From contig OX597825.1 of the NCBI GenBank assembly GCA_951406725.2, positions 4,154,001 to 4,218,000 of the forward strand: 64,000 bases of DNA. Reading direction: 5' to 3'. The DNA is from Octopus vulgaris (lineage: Eukaryota). A model generated the notes under the pieces. That model was not told the origin of the DNA, ran no database searches, and saw only the letters and a list, made by a program, of their open reading frames with translations. Positions 10,271 to 49,260 of the stretch are shown piece by piece; the first letter of the stretch is position 1; the number at the start of each line of letters is the position of its first letter. The position numbers and the translations under genes are program-made.

Positions 10271-10330
10271 GTAGATACTGGGACCCAGCGCCCCTAGTGG
10301 GTAATAAAGAAAGTAGATATTGGGACCCAG
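10271..10330 (+). mobile_element. 24-nt retro-insertion (terminal stem-loop of SINE-B tail A) with 18-bp TSD
   Basis: GTAGATACTGGGACCCAG (10271-10288) and GTAGATATTGGGACCCAG (10313-10330) flank CGCCCCTAGTGGGTAATAAAGAAA, which matches GCCCCTTGTGGGTAGTAAAGAAA at 48881-48903. Confidence 0.85.
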
Positions 10331-32446: not shown

Positions 32447-32478
32447 AGGCACAGAGGTGGCTGTGTGGTAAGTAGCTT
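32447..32478 (+). mobile_element. SINE family A, 5' part (A box), interrupted by the Tx1 element
   Basis: AGGCACAGAGGTGGCTGTGTGGTAAGTAGCTT; the SINE resumes at 35561. Confidence 0.85.
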
Positions 32479-35400
32479 TGCTAACCTCACTGACAGAAGA
32501 GTGACTTTGCCTACCGTACTACGGTTTGGACGCGTTTTTTTCCCGGTAAGAGTTTTGCTGTGTTGTTAATTGTTGAATTCCTACTACTGAAAATTTGCCT
32601 TTAAACGTTGCTGAACTGTCTTGTTCTCCGGTTTTACCGGGAAATAATTGAATAATTTCTTACCGTTGAACTGTTAGCCACTGTGGCTTTTTATTTACGT
32701 TACCATACATAGTCCTGCCAGACTATTTTCGTGCCCCTCCCCCGAATGGGGGTGGGAATTGGAATTTTTGAACTGCTTTTTTGAACTACTTTGGAAGAAA
32801 AACTTTCTATAGGTTTCCCAGTTTTGTGGGAAACCAATACTCGTAATTTTTGTGTTGTCTAATTTCAACAGAATAATGTCTGTTGAAATTATTCACGAAA
32901 GTAGTGCTCTTGAGGAGAGCAATGTTAAAAAATTTTCTGAGGTAGCCGCAGTGGCTACCGAGAAAATTGACATCGATGTCAACCAGCTCGTCGAGCTATT
33001 TAAAAAAAATGCAAGAGGAGGGTGGTGATGTTAAAATATCACCCTCCGCCAGTATCGTGGAGACCGAGAAGCGTTTAAAACTTTCTGTCCACAAAGCAGA
33101 AGGTTCAAACACTTTGAAAAAAGTACCATCGAGAAATGCCTGTCCCCGATTTGGAAGGACATCGTGTACGTCGCCAGGGGACGGGCATATGGCACTGTGG
33201 ATGTCCGCTTCTCGACACGAGAGGCTGAGTGCTGTGAAGGGCCAATCACAGCCGAGGAAGTAATCGAGGTGTTGGGCAAGTGCCCCGGGGAGAAGTCGCC
33301 GGGTCTCGATGGTTTGCCCTATGAATTTTATAGAAGTATGCCAGACTTGTTCGGGCACCTGCTCCCTAGCGTCTACGCCAACTGGCAGCAGAATGAGAGA
33401 ATTCCCAAGTCTGCGAGCCGGGGGGCGGTGACGTTGATCAGGAAGGACCCGAACAAGGGGGACGAGATAGGGAACTTCAGGCCCATAACTCTGTTAAACA
33501 CAGAGTTAAAGATTCTGGCCAAGGTGCTAGCAAAAAGGTTGGCGCGGGTCGTGGACAAACTTGTCGGGGAAGCGCAAACGTGCGCTATCCCCGGCAGAAC
33601 GATCCACGACAATCTCCACCTTATACGCTACTCCTTAGAGAGGGTGGGGAAGCTTTCTGGCGCAGGGGGAGCACTGGTACATTTAGACCAGTCCAAAGCA
33701 TTTGATAGGGTCGACCATCGGTACCTGGCGGCGGTCCTCGGAGAGGCTGGCCTAGGCCCGACCTTTCGAGGTTGGATCGCTGCTTTGTATAGCGACATCG
33801 AGTCTGTAGTCAAAGTGAACGGTTCCTTTTCGAAGCCGTTCAGGATCGAGCGTTCAGTTCGTCAAGGGTGTCCCCTGTCCTCGCTCCTGTACGTATTGGC
33901 TCTTGAGCCTTTGCTGCGGAAGTTGGAGGCACTAGGGGGCGTGCCGCATGATCTATGGTGTGGAAGAGGAGCTACGGCGTATGCGGATGACACCTCCATC
34001 ATCGTGGCAGACGAAGGCCAGATTCCAGTGGTGGAAGAGGCACTCAAAAGCTACGAGGCGGTGGCAGGAGCAAAGGTTAACAAGGAAAAGTCGGTCGGTT
34101 TGCAACTCGGCACCTGGAGGGGCAAGCCGATGCCGTCCAATAACGTCGTAGGGCGTTGGACGGAAGGTCCTGTTAAGCTGCTCGGAGTCTGGTTCGGGCC
34201 AGACCTCCAGATTGAGAAAAATTGGAGTGAGGTGGCCAACAAGGTGACCGCTCTAACCCAGACCTGGTCTGGGCGGGCGTTATCCCTGCTAGGGAAGGCG
34301 GAGGTGGTGCAGATGTTTATAGCATCAGTAATCACCTACCGTCTGACCGTGGTGCCTTGCCCCGATTTGTGGCTGAACAAGTTGGAGAGAATCCTTTTCC
34401 GATTTTTGTGGAAAGGAGGAAAGCCACTTGTAAAGCGCTCTGTCTGCTGCCAGAAACCGCTAAAGGGTGGGCTAGGGATGCCTTGGCTGAGGATGCGAAA
34501 ACTCGCGTTAAGGTTGAGGCACCTCTGGCTTTACCTGGATGGAGAGCAGGTATGGTCACCGCACGTCCGGTTCTACCTTCCCCAGTTAACATCCCTAACG
34601 GACATCGGTGCATGGATCAAGCGGAGACCTAAACTGAGTGAATGGCATTTGGAGTGCCGTCATGCGCTCCAGCTACTATCTCAGGTGGGCAACGCCGGCA
34701 ACAGGAGTTCCACCACGGATTTCTATAGCGGGTTAGTGGAGATTAAGTCCGAAGACGCCTTGGGGGAGACCCTGGGCTACGATGAAAATCAGCTGGTCAA
34801 CCTGTTCCGGAGGACGTTCGGGCCGGGGTATCTGGATAATTACCAGAAATCCCTGGCCTGGCAGTGTTTCCGTGCGGCTTTACCTGTTCGCGACAAGCTG
34901 TCAAGGCACGGTAGTGCCGTCTCGCCGACATGCCCGCGATGTGAGCAGGTAGGGAGACCGTCTTGCACGCATTCGTGGAGTGTCCGGAGTTATCGGGACT
35001 GATAGCTTTTGTTGAACAACTGTTGTCAGTGATGGGAAGAGTACAGCTATCAGCTGAGTCTATCATCGAGATTGTGCCGCCCCCTTTCCTTAACAGGGAA
35101 AGAAAGGCTTGTTTTTTTCTGTGTAGTAGCCATACTGAAAGAAACAGTATGGAAGACGCGTACGAAAGGTATAGTGACAGGCACCTTTGTCTCCGGCCAG
35201 GGGTTGATTAACTTTTTTAGGTACCACCTCAGTAGCAAAATCAGGCTGGAGAAGATGTGTCTGTCACGAGATATATTTGTGAAAAGATGGAAGCCTGTGG
35301 CATACAAGATGGGTATGTTTGGCACCAGGTAAGTTTGACCGGACCAGAAAGTAAAGGTTCTACCCGGATGGCTGGGTGTCCGTCCTTCGACATGATCATT

Positions 35401-35560
35401 AATATTTTTAAACATTGCCTTCGTAAAATTCATTGTTTATAATCTTATCCGTAATTTCATTCGAAAATTGTAACTGTGTTAAGCTACTTCACCCTTTATA
35501 TTTGTCTGTCCTTGTTTGTCCCCTCTTTGTAAATGCCTAAATGGCAAATTATATGAAATA
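32479..35560 (+). mobile_element. L1/Tx1-clade non-LTR retrotransposon with both termini, internal deletion and 9-bp TSD
   Basis: TSD AAGTAGCTT at 32470-32478 and 35561-35569. ~400-nt 5' UTR, RT ORF, C-terminal CPRC...H...C knuckle, ~230-nt 3' UTR ending GAAATA. Confidence 0.9.
32876..35332 (+). pseudogene. Putative ORF1 N-terminus fused in frame to ORF2 reverse transcriptase; no APE endonuclease; open frame 33035-35002
   Basis: RT motifs KSPGLDGLPYEFY, NFRPITLLNTELKIL, LDQSKAFDRVDH, VRQGCPLSSLLY, AYADD and KLLGVWF, plus Tx1-like PLKGGLGMP. ATG 32876 is in the same frame but has stops between two A-run indels (~33002, ~33033). C-terminal frameshifts near 34950 and 35115. Confidence 0.85.
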
Positions 35561-35797
35561 AAGTAGCTTACTTACCAATCACATGGTTCCGGGTTCAGTA
35601 CCACTGCGTGGTACCTTCGGCAAGTGTCTTCCACTATAGCCTCGGGCCGAGCAAAGCCTTGTGAGTGGATTTGGTAGACGGAAACTGAAAGAAGCCTGTC
35701 GTATATATGTATAAATATATGTGTGTGTGTATGTTTATGTGCTTGTGTTTGCATGGCCGCAGTCAAATGTCTGAAACAATTAAAAGAGTAAAAGAAT
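35561..35797 (+). mobile_element. SINE family A, 3' remainder (B box, core, tail)
   Basis: AAGTAGCTTACTTACCAATCACATGGTTCCGGGTTCAGTACC...GGATTTGGTAGACGGAAACTGAAAGAAGCC...GCATGGCCGCAGTCAAATGTCTGAAACAATTAAAAGAGTAAAAGA. Confidence 0.88.
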
Positions 35798-39004: not shown

Positions 39005-39098
<94 letters not shown>

Positions 39099-39114
39099 GT
39101 ATATATATCTAGCA

Positions 39115-39243
39115 ATGAATCTAGCAAAAGAACTAATGAATCTAGCAAAAGAACAAATGAATCTAGCAAAAGAACTGGAAAAAAACATCCGAGCTATCAC
39201 CCACCGCCATCCACCACTATTACCCCACTTCACATGCCATTAA
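39115..39243 (+). CDS. Probable C-terminal remnant of LINE ORF1 (with junctional 21-bp repeats), overlapping the ORF2 start
   Basis: MNLAKELMNLAKEQMNLAKELEKNIRAITHRHPPLLPHFTCH*; stop TAA 39241-39243 lies just after the ORF2 ATG at 39234. Confidence 0.5.
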   Translation: MNLAKELMNLAKEQMNLAKELEKNIRAITHRHPPLLPHFTCH

Positions 39244-42200
39244 AAAGCAATCAAATAAACAAATCACCAAAACAATTAAAACCATCCACTCTCGCCTCAA
39301 CATTTCTGCTTAATGCCCAAGGCATCAGCCCTTCCACCAATACACAAAAATGGAAGATAAGATTCCTGGAGGACTGGGTCGAGGCCCATCCAAACCACAT
39401 CCCTTTCTTCGTCCTCACTGAAACCCATCTTAGTGACCTCCACTTGGAAGCCGAGGTGAAAGTTAAAAATTTCAAAACCATTCGTGCTGATCGTGTTGGC
39501 AGAAGAAAGGGTGGGACTGCCATTTATGTCCATGATTCATTCTCAACAGAAGCCATGAACATATTTTCGAATGGATACTGCGAAGCAGTCGCTGTATTCA
39601 GTCAAACCAACAACTTAACAGTAGTTGGGCTCTACAGACCACCCCAAACGCCCCTACCATGCTTCAAGGAATGCCTCAACAGCATAAAGTGTTTCATTCA
39701 GCAGTGTCAACCTGACAACATTTTAATGATGGGAGATTTCAACCTTCCCGGTGTTGACTGGTCTACAAACAGTCTGCCGCCAGGTTCTTCTCTCTCAACC
39801 CCTGACAGGGAGGCAGTGGAATCGCTTCTTGACTTCATGGATGACTTCTTCTTGTCCCAACTGGTACTCGAACCAACGAGATGTCACAAAAACGTCTTAG
39901 ACTTAATTTTCAGCAATCACACTGATACTATCCACAATATTGCAGTGGAGAAAACCCTACTCTCCGACCATGACATGGTTCTCTGTGATCTGAGATTTCA
40001 CTGGCCAAAATGCAAAACAAATGTCATCCCTCCTGTTCATCCATTTGACACTATGGATTTCCACAATGCAAACTGGGAAGCGATCAATAATGATCTTGCA
40101 CAAGTCGATTGGTCCTTCACGCACACATACACACCCACTAACATCAAAAAGTCCTGGCAGTCACTTGTAGACACCATCACGAACATATGTGCAAGACACA
40201 CCCCATTAAGATCTGCAAACAAATCTAAGTGTCGAATCCCTAGAAATAGAAAATCTCTCATAAGGAAAATTAAAAGAATCAACAAAAAGATCAACATGCT
40301 GAAATACTGTCAACAGCAACACACCAACCTGACTGCCATCTCGTCGCTAGAGATTAAAAAACATAAACTCCAAAACAACATGATGTCTATCATCAATAGT
40401 CAGCGAAGAGCTGAAGAGGCCTGGGCCATTGAGAAGATCAAACTCAATCCCAAAGTGTTCTTTTCATTTGCAAAAAAACACAGAGTCACTGGTTCTACTG
40501 TTGGCCCTCTGATTGATGAAAATGATATTCTTCAAGACAATGCCAAAACCATGGGAGAAATATTGCAGAAACAATATTGCTCTGTTTTCAGCAATCCTGA
40601 TATGACTGATCTGGGCTGTATCAGTGATGTTACTCCCCAATACACTTTATCGGACATAACATTTGGCGCTCCTGATGTCTTAGCAGCAATAAAGGAAATG
40701 AAGCATAATTCAGCAGTAGGTCCCGATAGGTTCCCTGCTTGTGTCTTGAAGATGTGTCAAAACCAACTTGCACCCCCTCTAGCCAGTCTGTGGCGGAACT
40801 CATTGGATGCTGGATATATACCAGAAGACCTTCTATCCCAGTCTGTTGTCCCAGTTTTCAAAAAAGGAAACAAATCGCTTGCCGTGAATTACCGTCCAAT
40901 CTCACTCACCTCTCATATCATCAAGGTATTTGAGAGGGTGCTGAGATCGCGTATGACTTACTTCCTTGAGAGTCATAATATGCTGAACCCCAACCAGCAT
41001 GGATTCCGTAATGGGAGAGATTGCCTGACGCAGCTACTGCATCATTTTGATGACATTTTGAGAGCCTTGGGAGAGGGTTCCAACACTGATGTCATCTACC
41101 TTGATTTCAGCAAGGCCTTTGACAGGGTTGATCATAAGATCCTTCTGAGAAAGCTGTCCAATATTGGTGTCACTGGAAAGCTGCTGCAATGGATCAAGTG
41201 CTTCCTCTCTAACAGAACCCAACATGTTGTAGTCGAAGGAGTCAAATCCAGCCCAGCCAAAGTCAGCAGTGGTGTCCCACAAGGCACTGTGTTGGGCCCA
41301 CTTCTCTTCATCATCTACATAAATGATATTACTGACACCATCAAACACAGCAACATCAGAACCTTCGCTGATGATTCCAAGCTCCAGAAGGTCATCAATG
41401 GCGTGGATGACCGAATAAACCTTCAGTCAGACCTACTGGCTGTTGTCCAATGGGCGGAAAAGAATAACATGTTGCTAAATGAAGACAAATTCGAACTGAT
41501 CCACTTTGGAAGGGAGGACGCTCTGAAACTCCCATACTCTCTTCCTTCTGGAGAAATTCTCATGGCATCCAACAACATCAGAGACCTGGGAGTAACAGTG
41601 GACAACAACATAAGCTGGGCTACACATATAAGCAGCAAAGTTGACATGGCCCGCAGAATGTGTTCCTGGATTCTCAGAACCTTCCAGTCGAGAGATTCCC
41701 ACGCTATTATCCTTCTCTTCTCCACTTTTGCCCGACCCCACCTTGAATACTGCTGTCCACTGTGGTCTCCCTACACAAAACAAAATATTATGAGAATTGA
41801 AGCTCCCCAAACGTCAATCACAAAAAAGATAGATGGCATGTCAGACCTTGACTACTGGGGTAGACTAGAGAAGCTGAAATTGTATTCACTCCAACGACGC
41901 CGTGAACGCTACATTATCTGTATGATGTGGAAAATATTCCATCAGCACTGTCCGAATGATATTGGCATCACCTTCAAAATGCATCCAAGGCTTGGACCAC
42001 GTGCCATCCGTCCACAACAAAAATCTAAATCGCATCACATAACGACAATACGGCACAACTATTTCACCTCAATTGGACCCGCTCTCTTCAACATTACACC
42101 AGGACACGTCAAAAAAGAAACTGACCACACAAAATTCAAGAAGTCTTTGGACAAATTCCTTCAAACAGTACCGGACAAACCATCCACACCCGGATATGTC

Positions 42201-42251
42201 TCCGCAAACAATAACTCTCTGCTCGAATGGGCCTTGGTGCCCAAATCCTGA
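39234..42251 (+). CDS. LINE ORF2: AP-like endonuclease plus reverse transcriptase, 1005 aa, uninterrupted
   Basis: APE motifs LLNAQG, LTETHL, LYRPP, MGDFNLP, LDLIF, LSDH; RT motifs NYRPISLTS, QHGFR, YLDFSKAFDRVDH, GVPQGTVLGPLLF, FADD, RDLGV; C-terminal YSLQRRRERY. Confidence 0.96.
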   Translation: MPLKSNQINKSPKQLKPSTLASTFLLNAQGISPSTNTQKWKIRFLEDWVEAHPNHIPFFVLTETHLSDLHLEAEVKVKNFKTIRADRVGRRKGGTAIYVHDSFSTEAMNIFSNGYCEAVAVFSQTNNLTVVGLYRPPQTPLPCFKECLNSIKCFIQQCQPDNILMMGDFNLPGVDWSTNSLPPGSSLSTPDREAVESLLDFMDDFFLSQLVLEPTRCHKNVLDLIFSNHTDTIHNIAVEKTLLSDHDMVLCDLRFHWPKCKTNVIPPVHPFDTMDFHNANWEAINNDLAQVDWSFTHTYTPTNIKKSWQSLVDTITNICARHTPLRSANKSKCRIPRNRKSLIRKIKRINKKINMLKYCQQQHTNLTAISSLEIKKHKLQNNMMSIINSQRRAEEAWAIEKIKLNPKVFFSFAKKHRVTGSTVGPLIDENDILQDNAKTMGEILQKQYCSVFSNPDMTDLGCISDVTPQYTLSDITFGAPDVLAAIKEMKHNSAVGPDRFPACVLKMCQNQLAPPLASLWRNSLDAGYIPEDLLSQSVVPVFKKGNKSLAVNYRPISLTSHIIKVFERVLRSRMTYFLESHNMLNPNQHGFRNGRDCLTQLLHHFDDILRALGEGSNTDVIYLDFSKAFDRVDHKILLRKLSNIGVTGKLLQWIKCFLSNRTQHVVVEGVKSSPAKVSSGVPQGTVLGPLLFIIYINDITDTIKHSNIRTFADDSKLQKVINGVDDRINLQSDLLAVVQWAEKNNMLLNEDKFELIHFGREDALKLPYSLPSGEILMASNNIRDLGVTVDNNISWATHISSKVDMARRMCSWILRTFQSRDSHAIILLFSTFARPHLEYCCPLWSPYTKQNIMRIEAPQTSITKKIDGMSDLDYWGRLEKLKLYSLQRRRERYIICMMWKIFHQHCPNDIGITFKMHPRLGPRAIRPQQKSKSHHITTIRHNYFTSIGPALFNITPGHVKKETDHTKFKKSLDKFLQTVPDKPSTPGYVSANNNSLLEWALVPKS

Positions 42252-42964: not shown

Positions 42965-43960
42965 ATCTGTCTGTCTGTCTATCTATATGTGTGTGCGCGC
43001 GTGTCTACGTACGTATGTATGTGTGTGTACGTGTGTGGGTTGGTGAATGTATGTATATATAATTATATCTGTGTCACTACGAGTGTTTTTGTATCTACAT
43101 CTCCGAGCGTGCGTATGGCAAAACATTCGTTGGCTGGACTAAATGTTATCAATGAAACGCTGTGTTGATTTACGACAGACGATCGACGCATTTAATGTCT
43201 TTCTCTGAAAGATAAAATATAATTTGAGAAAGATTTCTTTTTATTTCAATCAGAAGCATTTAAAATCAAGTCACGCATTAAATATATGAGTAAAGTGTTT
43301 TGTTTAGTTGTATTTTGAGGATTTTTTTACTCACTGACTTATTGCCAACTATCTTAGTAGAAGTAATATTTTGATCTGATATTTTCTTTTAATGTTCTTA
43401 TACTATAACTGTGTGAACGTGTAAATCTTGCTTTTGAGAATAGAATTATCAAATAATGGCCAAATTACCTCAGTGGCTTAATCGTTATTATGTAGTATCT
43501 TCGATATCATTAACTAAGTATTAATTAATAAATATTTGATTGCTCACTCAATACGCTAATCTGCTCAACAACATCAATAATCTATTCTGAATACAGTCTC
43601 TCTTTATAATCAATGAACAATATTTTGCAACACATTTCGGTCAAAAGCTAATAAACGTAGATTTGCTCCATTCCAACTTCAATCTCATGGCCTGCTCCAT
43701 GTTTACTTTGCCACTATAAATTATGTATCTAGGCTGTCTTCCTTATTATGAAAGTAAAAAACCCATCGTGCATTCTATTGAAATTTAGTTCTGCTAGATC
43801 TGTTAAACTAGAGATGCAATGTAAAATATCGCTAAAATATCATTCTCAACTGGTGTATTTAACTTCAACTTTTCTATGTGGAAAATCCCTCATAGAAATA
43901 ATAAAGCGTTATTTGATGAAGATTTCATTCCATATTTCAATAATTAATTAACTATACATG

Positions 43961-44577
43961 CTCATTTCTACTCTAGGCACAAGGCTCGACATTTTGGGGG
44001 AAGGGGCCAATCGATTAGATCAACCCCAGTATGCAGCTGGTACTTAATTTATCGTCCTTGAACTGATGAAAAGCGAAGTCGACCTCGGCGGAATTCGAAC
44101 TGAGAACGTAAGGTCATACGAAATACCGCAAAGCATTTCTTCCGACGTGCTAACGTTTCTCATTCCTTTATTGCCCACAAGGGGATAAACATAGAGGAAG
44201 CAAACAAGGACAGGCAAACGGATTAAGTCGATTACATCGACCCCAGTGCGTAACTCGTACTTCATTTATCGACCGCAAAAGGATGAAAGGCAAAGTCGAC
44301 CTCGGCGGAATTTGAACTCAGAACATAACTACAGACGAAATACCTATTTCTTTATTACCCACAAGGGTCTAAACACAGAGGGGACAAGCAAGGACAGACA
44401 AACGCTTTAAGTCGATTACATCGATCCCAGTGCGTAACTGGTACTTGATTTATCGACCCCGAAAAGATGAAAGGCAAAATTGACGTCGGCGGAAATTGAA
44501 CTCAGAACGTAACGGCAGACGAAATACGGCTATGCATTTTGCCCGGCGTGCTAATGCTTCTGCCAGCTCGCCGCCTT
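43961..44577 (-). mobile_element. SINE family B trimer (tail A, tail A, tail B)
   Basis: Units 44577-44345, 44344-44161 and 44160-43961, each with the B box and core GAGTTCAAATTCCGCCGAGGTCGAC; candidate outer TSD TAACTATAC at 43949-43957 and 44581-44589. Confidence 0.9.
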
Positions 44578-48706: not shown

Positions 48707-49260
48707 ACGAAATGCTTGGTGGTATTTCGTTTGTCTTTACGTTCTGAGTTCAAATTCCGCCGAGGTCGACCTTGCCTTTCGTCCTTTCGGGGTCGATAAA
48801 TTAAGTCCCAGTGACGCACTGGGGTCGATATAATCGGACTTAATCCATTTGTCTGTCCTTGTTTGTCCGCGGCGTGTTTAGCCCCTTGTGGGTAGTAAAG
48901 AAATATGTATTTCGTTTGTCTTTACGTTCTGAGTTCAAATTCCGCCGAGGTCGATTTTGCCTTTCATCCTTTCGGGGTCGATAAATTAAGTACCAGTGAC
49001 GCACTGGGGTCGATATAATCGGACTTAATCCATTTGTCTGTCCTTGTTTGTCCGCGGCGTGTTTAGCCCCTTGTGGGTAGTAAAGGAATAGGTATTTCGT
49101 TTGTCTTTACGTTCTGAGTTCAAATTCCGCCGAGGTCAACTTTCCCCTAAATACTCACGGGGTCGATAAAGTAAGTATCATTTGCGTACAGGGCTCGATC
49201 TAATCGACTGCCTCCTTCTCCCAATATTTCGGGCCTTTTGCCTAGAGTAGAAAAGAAAAA
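48707..49260 (+). mobile_element. SINE family B trimer (tail A, tail A, tail B), 185-bp period, with 17-bp TSD
   Basis: (G/T)GTATTTCGTTTGTCTTTACGTTCTGAGTTCAAATTCCGCCGAGGTC at 48721, 48906 and 49091; TSD AATATTTATAAGCCTCA (48690-48706) / AATATTTGTAAGCTTCA (49261-49277). Confidence 0.92.

What the first reader, a model, noticed from the sequence alone, without database searches (positions are those of the whole stretch)
35500..35560. SINE tail borrowed from the 3' end of the L1/Tx1 element: a candidate Tx1-SINE partner pair
Seen: Tx1 3' UTR TTTGTCTGTCCTTGTTTGTCCCCTCT (35501-35526) is 25/26 identical to SINE-B tail A (reverse complement of 44377-44402), and 35500-35521 is 22/22 identical to 48847-48868. 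Both continue into a small GC hairpin (GCC-TAAAT-GGC versus GCCC-CTTGT-GGGT) and an A-rich end finishing GAAATA. Established: SINEs commonly share 3' tails with partner LINEs of the CR1, L2 and RTE clades, whereas mammalian L1 relies on poly(A). Inference: this Tx1 lineage recognises a specific 3' sequence or structure and mobilises SINE-B/tail A.
Basis: partly seen in the sequence, partly recalled or inferred. Interest (0 to 1): 0.78.

Follow-up and report, generated by a model that had tools for sequence, protein, structure and literature searches.

The report
SINE carries a Tx1 stem-loop tail
A very abundant short jumping element in this probably octopus genome ends in the same tail as a whole group of long Tx1-type jumping elements, and it is likely copied not by the family in this window but by sister families, one of which inserts inside the short element itself.

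Summary
The match is real (25/26 and 22/22) and is family-wide: 29 of 30 copies of the window's LINE (family A) carry it. It is not specific to A. About a dozen related L1/Tx1-type families end in a pyrimidine run, a predicted stem-loop with compensatory changes, and AATAAA(GAAAT). The SINE tail matches A and K in its first ~30 nt, but matches a different clade (E/F/G/M, bootstrap 100) in the hairpin and end. Insertion sites point away from A. A lands at one site of another SINE (49 of 50 ends), yet tail A precedes that site only 17 times genome-wide, against 49,466 empty sites. Tail A precedes family M's site, which lies inside SINE-B itself, 29,036 times (inherited array junctions included). 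M sits there in 28 of 30 copies, and full-length tail-A SINEs show the same ~16-bp duplication. Verdict: Tx1-type tail and mobilisation well supported, wrong partner named, no functional test. My searches found no animal SINE with a Tx1 tail in print: new variant of a known kind.

The parts
32448..32478 (+). 5' part of the host SINE-A, ending in the left copy of the target duplication (GTAGCTT, 32472-32478)
   Evidence: Sequence; same junction directly upstream in 17 of 20 long loci
32479..35562 (+). Family A L1/Tx1-type LINE copy: ORF1 start at 32876, about 2.35 kb missing at 33206-33214, RT and zf-RVT remnant ending at 35332, 230-nt 3' UTR
   Evidence: complete relatives are about 5.45 kb with a 1150-aa APE-RT-zf-RVT frame
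35501..35526 (+). Pyrimidine run shared with SINE tail A and with K-type families
35524..35556 (+). Predicted two-part stem-loop; upper hairpin at 35534-35546
   Evidence: z -2.81; 2 of 200 shuffles fold as well
35563..35700 (+). Right copy of the target duplication and 3' part of the host SINE-A
44405..44576 (-). SINE-B head and body, first unit of a three-unit array
44346..44402 (-). Tail A (run, stem-loop, AATAAAGAAAT), followed by SINE-B restarting at position about 50
43960..44343 (-). Second unit (from position 50, tail A) and third unit (from position about 16, tail B)
48710..49260 (+). SINE-B array: two tail-A units (48848, 49033), each followed by SINE-B from position 50, closed by tail B
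10289..10312 (+). 24-nt insertion made only of a G-type hairpin and AATAAAGAAA, flanked by an 18-bp duplication (10271-10288 and 10313-10330, one mismatch); marks the end of the tail

Best explanation
SINE-B tail A shares its 3' end with a radiation of L1/Tx1-type LINEs in this genome, and is likely copied in trans by the E/M branch of that radiation, whose reverse transcriptase is predicted to bind the stem-loop tail, rather than by the window's family A. Shown: shared tail, family trees, target sites and target duplications. Inferred: the RNA folds as predicted; the LINE protein recognises it; the endonuclease of M-type families cuts inside SINE-B (positions 49-64) and that of the E1 subfamily before AGAA, which would give the SINE its observed junctions and arrays. 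The first 30 nt, identical in A and K, likely came from a K/A-type donor by tail exchange, or from an older family; they do not identify the mobiliser.
For: Tail group-wide: a hairpin plus A(A/G)TAA end is seen in 37 of 40 zf-RVT loci fetched (2 not read to the end, 1 lacks it), and in families B, C, D, K, M. Structure: 79.1% of cells paired against 72.0+/-1.5 shuffled (0 of 500) and at most 50.8% when slid; all 4 upper-stem pairs change on both sides. The three common SINE variants inside the stem-loop keep it: one bulge, two wobble pairs. Last 28 nt score E2 52, E1 46, M 39, G 38, A 14. E, F, G and M form one clade, UFBoot 100. Targets: M at SINE-B position 50 in 28 of 30, with host 1-64 | M | host 49 onward in 6 of 10 long loci. 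A full SINE-B head follows that same host end 40 times genome-wide, against 1 at a control position. Of 23 distinct such arrays, 22 carry tail A and 16 return to the M site, against 10 of 24 full-head SINE-B with tail A in background loci. E1 ends before AGAA in 8 of 9 copies (0 of 20 other E-type), 2 of them at SINE-B position 16. SINE target duplications: 25 of 50 against 0 of 250 controls, median 16 bp; E-type candidates 13-21 bp.
Against: No LINE with the whole tail A was found. The best whole-tail score is a K-type copy (76), just above E2 (73), and M scores only 53. M has loop CCGGT, not CTTGT, and its young copies end GAAATT where the SINE ends GAAATA. Many of the 29,036 junctions are inherited, because dimers move as a unit inside one duplication. 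Three of the 23 arrays repeat head 1-64 in tandem, which local duplication could also give. Folding support is uneven: z is about 0 for M, O, N and C; the count of doubly changed pairs is not above shuffle (182 of 500); single hairpins mostly do not beat shuffles. About 9 of 12 examined tail-plus-A-site hits do lie in SINE-A, so rare use of A's site exists. Only 150 of 25,802 zf-RVT candidates were scored, 70 fetched.
Confidence: 0.7

Rival explanations
1. An unsampled or extinct Tx1-type family (possibly K-related) carried the whole tail A and mobilised the SINE; E and M are only relatives.
For: Tail A joins an A/K-type run to an E/M-type hairpin. K-type copies match about 32 nt and give the best whole-tail score, 76. 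SINE bodies are a median 93.4% identical to their majority (31 units), so the main burst is not recent. The LINE sample favours intact copies.
Against: Four pattern searches for the whole tail behind non-SINE sequence gave no such LINE among the loci examined (30 of 258, 11 of 11, 22 of 22, 30 of 145, 46/48). None of the K-type LINE ends printed is followed by a SINE-B site. Older M copies (92-94% identical) use the GGTATTTCG form of the site seen after the SINE.
Confidence: 0.15
2. One reading: family A recognises the shared motif and mobilises SINE-B/tail A.
For: 26-nt near-identity, fixed in the family; 17 tail ends precede A's target.
Against: A is site-specific for SINE-A (49 of 50 ends) with at least 49,466 empty sites, yet only 17 tail ends use it; 0 of 225 sampled tails do. 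The run is shared as well or better by K. A's hairpin and end differ.
Confidence: 0.07
3. The tail is Tx1-derived, but the SINE-B arrays arose once by duplication and spread as units; sharing position 50 with M is coincidence or came from one founder event.
For: Dimers are flanked by a single duplication; long 184-bp tandem runs exist; head 1-64 repeats occur.
Against: Full heads after host position 64 at many unlinked loci with varied spacers (40 against 1), nearly all with tail A. Single SINEs in unique DNA also start their duplications with GGTAT or AGAA.
Confidence: 0.12
4. A non-Tx1 LINE (RTE, Dong/R4, Hero, CR1) moves the SINE, and Tx1 families picked the motif up from it.
For: RTE, Dong/R4 and Hero 3' ends were not properly sampled; some M copies do carry the SINE-type end (L380, L389, L473, L474), so SINE-to-LINE exchange happens.
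Against: The tail varies along the ORF2 tree across the whole group. Of 486 tail-end motifs in fetched DNA none had CR1-like coding upstream (sample enriched for Tx1). 12 other RT loci and the window's CR1-like element score 12-20.
Confidence: 0.04

Closest known systems
SINEU and Tx1-Mar of crocodilians (Kojima 2015, PMC4494074; abstract, sections 3 and 15 and search passages read)
   Same: A SINE assigned to Tx1 machinery from shared target preference; Tx1 families that target other repeats, U2 genes and microsatellites.
   Different: SINEU ends in poly(A), no LINE sharing the SINEU-1 3' end was found, and the target is a Mariner element. Here the tail is shared, there is no poly(A), and the target is the SINE itself.
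Maize ZmSINE2/3 with LINE1-1_ZM; Chlamydomonas SINEX-3_CR with L1-1_CR (Ohshima 2012, PMC3472496, first third read; Ohshima 2013, PMC3747384, passages and Table 1 read)
   Same: L1-clade LINEs with a conserved 3' end of about 45-50 nt, a hairpin with compensatory changes, shared with SINEs.
   Different: Those are plants and algae. The review counts only 3 SINEs with L1-clade tails, and its table of pairs has no Tx1 partner and no animal L1-clade tail.
Classical stringent pairs such as eel UnaSINE/UnaL2 and CR1, L2, RTE or Nimb partners of mollusc SINEs (PMC3747384 Table 1; PMC11481361 and PMC4824008, passages read)
   Same: tRNA-type SINE with an exchangeable LINE-derived tail; SINE-B itself has two tails.
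   Different: The partner clade here is L1/Tx1-type and site-specific; the term Tx1 does not occur in either mollusc paper.
Xenopus Tx1 in Tx1D; Keno, Kibi, Koshi (as described in PMC4494074 section 3)
   Same: Target-specific Tx1 families; here C sits at (ATT)n, D at (CT)n and one H copy at a U1 gene.
   Different: Families A, B and M target SINEs.

Membership tests
Tx1 / L1-clade non-LTR retrotransposon (families A-M) | ORF2 with APE endonuclease, RT and C-terminal zinc motif | tested here: met
   Pfam Exo_endo_phos, RVT_1 and zf-RVT all over cut-off in L078
Tx1 / L1-clade non-LTR retrotransposon (families A-M) | Separate ORF1 with a CCHC zinc knuckle | tested here: met
   C-x2-C-x4-H-x4-C read directly in the ORF1 of L070; that this is typical of Tx1 is recalled
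Tx1 / L1-clade non-LTR retrotransposon (families A-M) | Target-sequence preference with target duplication | tested here: met
   A 49 of 50, M 28 of 30; M duplication about 16 bp; A at least 7 bp, up to 14, junction ambiguous
Tx1 clade proper, as against other L1-clade lineages | RT groups with named Tx1 references | not testable with these tools
   No named reference was available; the tree has only unnamed homologues and one Argonauta protein. The label Tx1 rests on architecture, targeting and recall
tRNA-derived SINE (SINE-B) | Short, non-coding, high copy, target duplications | tested here: met
   About 230 nt; 28,000 exact matches of a 35-nt tail motif; duplications in 25 of 50
tRNA-derived SINE (SINE-B) | [quoted passage not shown] | tested here: inconclusive
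   Box-like motifs visible by eye; ARAGORN finds no tRNA in the window; transcription not tested
Stringent SINE-LINE pair | Shared 3' tail sequence | tested here: met
   no single family matches the whole tail
Stringent SINE-LINE pair | Conserved stem-loop with compensatory changes | tested here: met
   predicted only, weak for some families
Stringent SINE-LINE pair | Tail required for trans-mobilisation | not testable with these tools
   Needs an assay
Family A as the partner | SINE uses the LINE's target site | tested here: not met
   17 against 29,036; 0 of 225
MetaSINE, or octopus OK/OR1/OR2 | Central domain and named consensus | not tested
   Resemblance of the SINE-B body to the Meta domain is recalled only; the 1994 octopus paper is not held

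The most novel reading that the evidence does not exclude
An animal Tx1 radiation uses stringent stem-loop recognition instead of poly(A), and one branch forms a closed loop with its SINE: the LINE copies the SINE through the shared tail and cuts inside that same SINE, so every new SINE copy is a landing site for both, which builds the SINE arrays.
Probability: 0.55. Interest if true: 0.74.

Novelty: new variant of a known kind. Interest (0 to 1): 0.62.

Why it matters
Whether L1-clade elements were ancestrally stringent, and relaxed to poly(A) only in mammals and some plants, rests on plant and algal cases (PMC3472496). An animal Tx1 group with a conserved, co-varying tail and a high-copy SINE would fill that gap. 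About a dozen related families with natural tail and target variants, several with open ORF2 frames, allow RNA recognition and target choice to be swapped and tested separately. It would also name the driver for a major SINE of this genome (SINEs are 11.6% of the O. vulgaris assembly in PMC13282606) and explain its tandem arrays.

Tried and rejected
Local scrap of SINE in one LINE copy: rejected (29 of 30). All tail-A copies being self-insertions: rejected, many lie in unique DNA with their own duplication. A LINE carrying the entire tail: not found (only part of the hits of 18 and 46 examined). A shorter duplication as an argument against A: dropped, because A's 5' junction is ambiguous and only one informative short truncated copy turned up, without a readable duplication. 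The arm-shuffle test (79 of 80 paired) is circular and is not used. The bracket line printed was one column off; one search gives the corrected map. L036's distant RT fragment led to no family. P0004 returned family C again. Atlas search gave only unnamed RT clusters. Sequencing runs: no RNA holder listed; laying contigs says nothing on expression. Earlier scan notes: none for this genome or sequence. Tree: 5 of 41 genome rows dropped for under 300 columns; two rows labelled J fell elsewhere. Literature: searches found no Tx1-tailed SINE and no Tx1 that targets its own SINE. Repbase, Dfam, SINEBase entries, subscription papers and supplements were not seen and could hold such a pair.

Full report
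Setting. The window lies in a 2.8-Gb genome of 227 contigs. I infer an octopus: the closest named ORF2 homologue is from Argonauta, and the SINEs resemble octopus families as I recall them. Family letters are my own labels.

Observation. The 21-nt core occurs 4 times in the window and never in 100 shuffles. Both hairpins are present.

The window's LINE (family A). It spans 32479-35562, lacks about 2.35 kb internally, and complete relatives are about 5.45 kb with ORF1 and a 1150-aa APE-RT-zf-RVT frame. A search with coding sequence only gave 2077 candidates, 40 scored at 98-100%. Of the 30 fetched, the window's own copy included, 29 carry the 26-mer within two mismatches and one has a 9-nt deletion. 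So the motif is part of the family. A is site-specific: 49 of 50 distinct 3' ends are followed by GTAGC(T/A)T, 47 continuing into SINE-A, and 17 of 20 long loci show the SINE-A head directly upstream (one follows another element, two were not read).

The tail belongs to a whole group. Searches with a homologue, with zf-RVT and with 3' UTRs gave further families: B (ORF1-only, same site as A), C at (ATT)n, D at (CT)n, E, F, G, H, I, J, K, M, N, O. In one search, 37 of 40 loci end in a T/C-rich run, a hairpin and A(A/G)TAA; two were not read to the end and one lacks it. None of these ends shows a poly(A) tail beyond a few A residues. ORF2 identities to A are about 55-69%. The ML tree (36 genome rows, 8 external; 5 short rows dropped) joins E, F, G and M at UFBoot 100, A with K at 91, and the whole group with the Argonauta protein at 100.

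Structure. Folding mostly gives a two-part stem-loop: an upper 3-7-bp hairpin and, in many families, a lower stem from UCU-UGU to AAUA-AGA. Upper stems differ in sequence: GCC/GGC in A, B, C; GCCC/GGG(C/U) in E, F, G, M and the SINE; GAUU/AAUC in H, I; ACC/GGU in D. On an unguided alignment of 23 tails, 79.1% of cells pair (72.0+/-1.5 shuffled, 0 of 500; at most 50.8% when slid), and all four upper pairs change on both sides, although that count alone is not above shuffle (182 of 500) and H-K and N rows are out of register. Folding z is negative for 14 of 17 LINE tails, below -2 for 6, and about zero for M, O, N and C. Among 225 SINE tails, the three common variants inside the stem-loop fall in the bulge or make G-U pairs. 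The structure is predicted, not probed.

The SINE. A 35-nt tail-A motif has 28,000 exact matches. SINE-B has two tails; in loci fetched for LINEs, full-head copies split 10 A, 8 B, 6 other. Tail-A copies occur singly and in arrays restarting at position 50 or 16. Of 50 full-length arrays ending in tail A, 25 have a clear target duplication (0 of 250 mismatched controls), median 16 bp, often beginning GGTAT, AGAA or TATAT.

Which family matches. Against the 58-nt tail, the first 30 nt score K3 60, K 58, A 55; the last 28 score E2 52, E1 46, M 39, G 38, A 14; whole-tail best are K3 76 and E2 73, with A 55 and M 53. Twelve other RT loci and the window's CR1-like element score 12-20, but true 3' ends were visible only for CR1-like elements. 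No LINE with the entire tail was found.

Which family shares the target. Tail end plus A's site: 17 genome-wide, about 9 of 12 examined inside SINE-A, against at least 49,466 empty sites. Tail end plus GTATTTCG: 29,036, a number that includes junctions inherited within arrays. That second site is family M's target: 28 of 30 copies, and 6 of 10 long loci read host 1-64, M, host from 49. To separate new insertion from inheritance I counted full SINE heads directly after host position 64: 40, against 1 at a control position. Of 23 distinct arrays among the 25 loci fetched, 22 carry tail A, 1 tail B, and 16 return to the site; three show tandem head repeats that duplication could explain. Separately, the E1 subfamily ends before AGAA in 8 of 9 copies, twice at SINE-B position 16, against 0 of 20 other E-type copies.

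Mechanism. Shown: shared tail, targets, duplications. Inferred from established TPRT and stringent SINE-LINE biology (PMC3747384): SINE-B RNA, probably a Pol III transcript, presents the stem-loop to an E/M-type ORF2, which nicks its preferred site and copies the SINE there. M-type cutting inside SINE-B would seed arrays, which then also move as units. The A/K-type upstream run likely records an earlier donor or a tail exchange; four M copies carrying the SINE-type end show that such exchange occurs. Family A shares ancestry and the run, and may move the SINE rarely.

Comparison with what is known. SINEU/Tx1-Mar is a Tx1-SINE pair inferred from targets, without a shared tail (PMC4494074). L1-clade tails on SINEs were listed only for maize and Chlamydomonas, with no Tx1 entry in the table of pairs (PMC3747384; PMC3472496). 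Mollusc SINE papers name CR1, L2 and Nimb partners. An O. vulgaris annotation lists 13 recently active L1-Tx1 families and does not use the word target (PMC13282606, passages). Nine searches found nothing closer; repeat databases were not available. Two earlier scan notes describe SINE-targeting LINE fragments in other genomes; I did not test them.

Verdict. Real feature. Tx1-type origin of the tail and Tx1-type mobilisation about 0.9; E/M branch as mobiliser about 0.7; family A as the main partner under 0.1. New variant of a known kind; interest 0.62.

Noticed in passing
window 32472-35576; L001-L030, L061-L080, L400-L429: Family A is a young, high-copy LINE that inserts at one site of SINE-A (49 of 50 ends), sometimes in tandem.
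   Followed up: yes
L092-L111: Family B: ORF1-only derivatives (ORF1 about 35-44% identical to A, no ORF2) that keep the tail and A's target and form tandem runs; resembles HAL1-type elements (recalled).
   Followed up: partly
L368:8796-8959: An H-group element ends directly at the 5' end of a full U1 snRNA sequence (Rfam 125 bits); one copy only.
   Followed up: partly
L112-L121: Family C: near-identical copies with open 1145-aa frames, at (ATT)n and in tandem arrays of about 5.87-kb period.
   Followed up: partly
window 49210-49260 (+): SINE-B tail B also folds into a stem-loop, usually with the same CTTGT loop, and is often followed by ATT repeats; no partner LINE found.
   Followed up: partly
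L380, L389, L473, L474: Family M copies or adjacent units whose last bases are of the SINE type while the loop is M type: tail exchange between LINE and SINE.
   Followed up: no
window 10271-10330: A 24-nt insertion consisting only of a G-type hairpin and end, with an 18-bp duplication.
   Followed up: partly
window 39006-42251 (+): Open 1081-aa stop-to-stop frame with endonuclease and RT, no zf-RVT, CR1/L2-like by recall; its 3' end is unlike tail A.
   Followed up: partly
L109, L177: Family D ends at (CT)n microsatellites in 2 of 2 copies seen.
   Followed up: no
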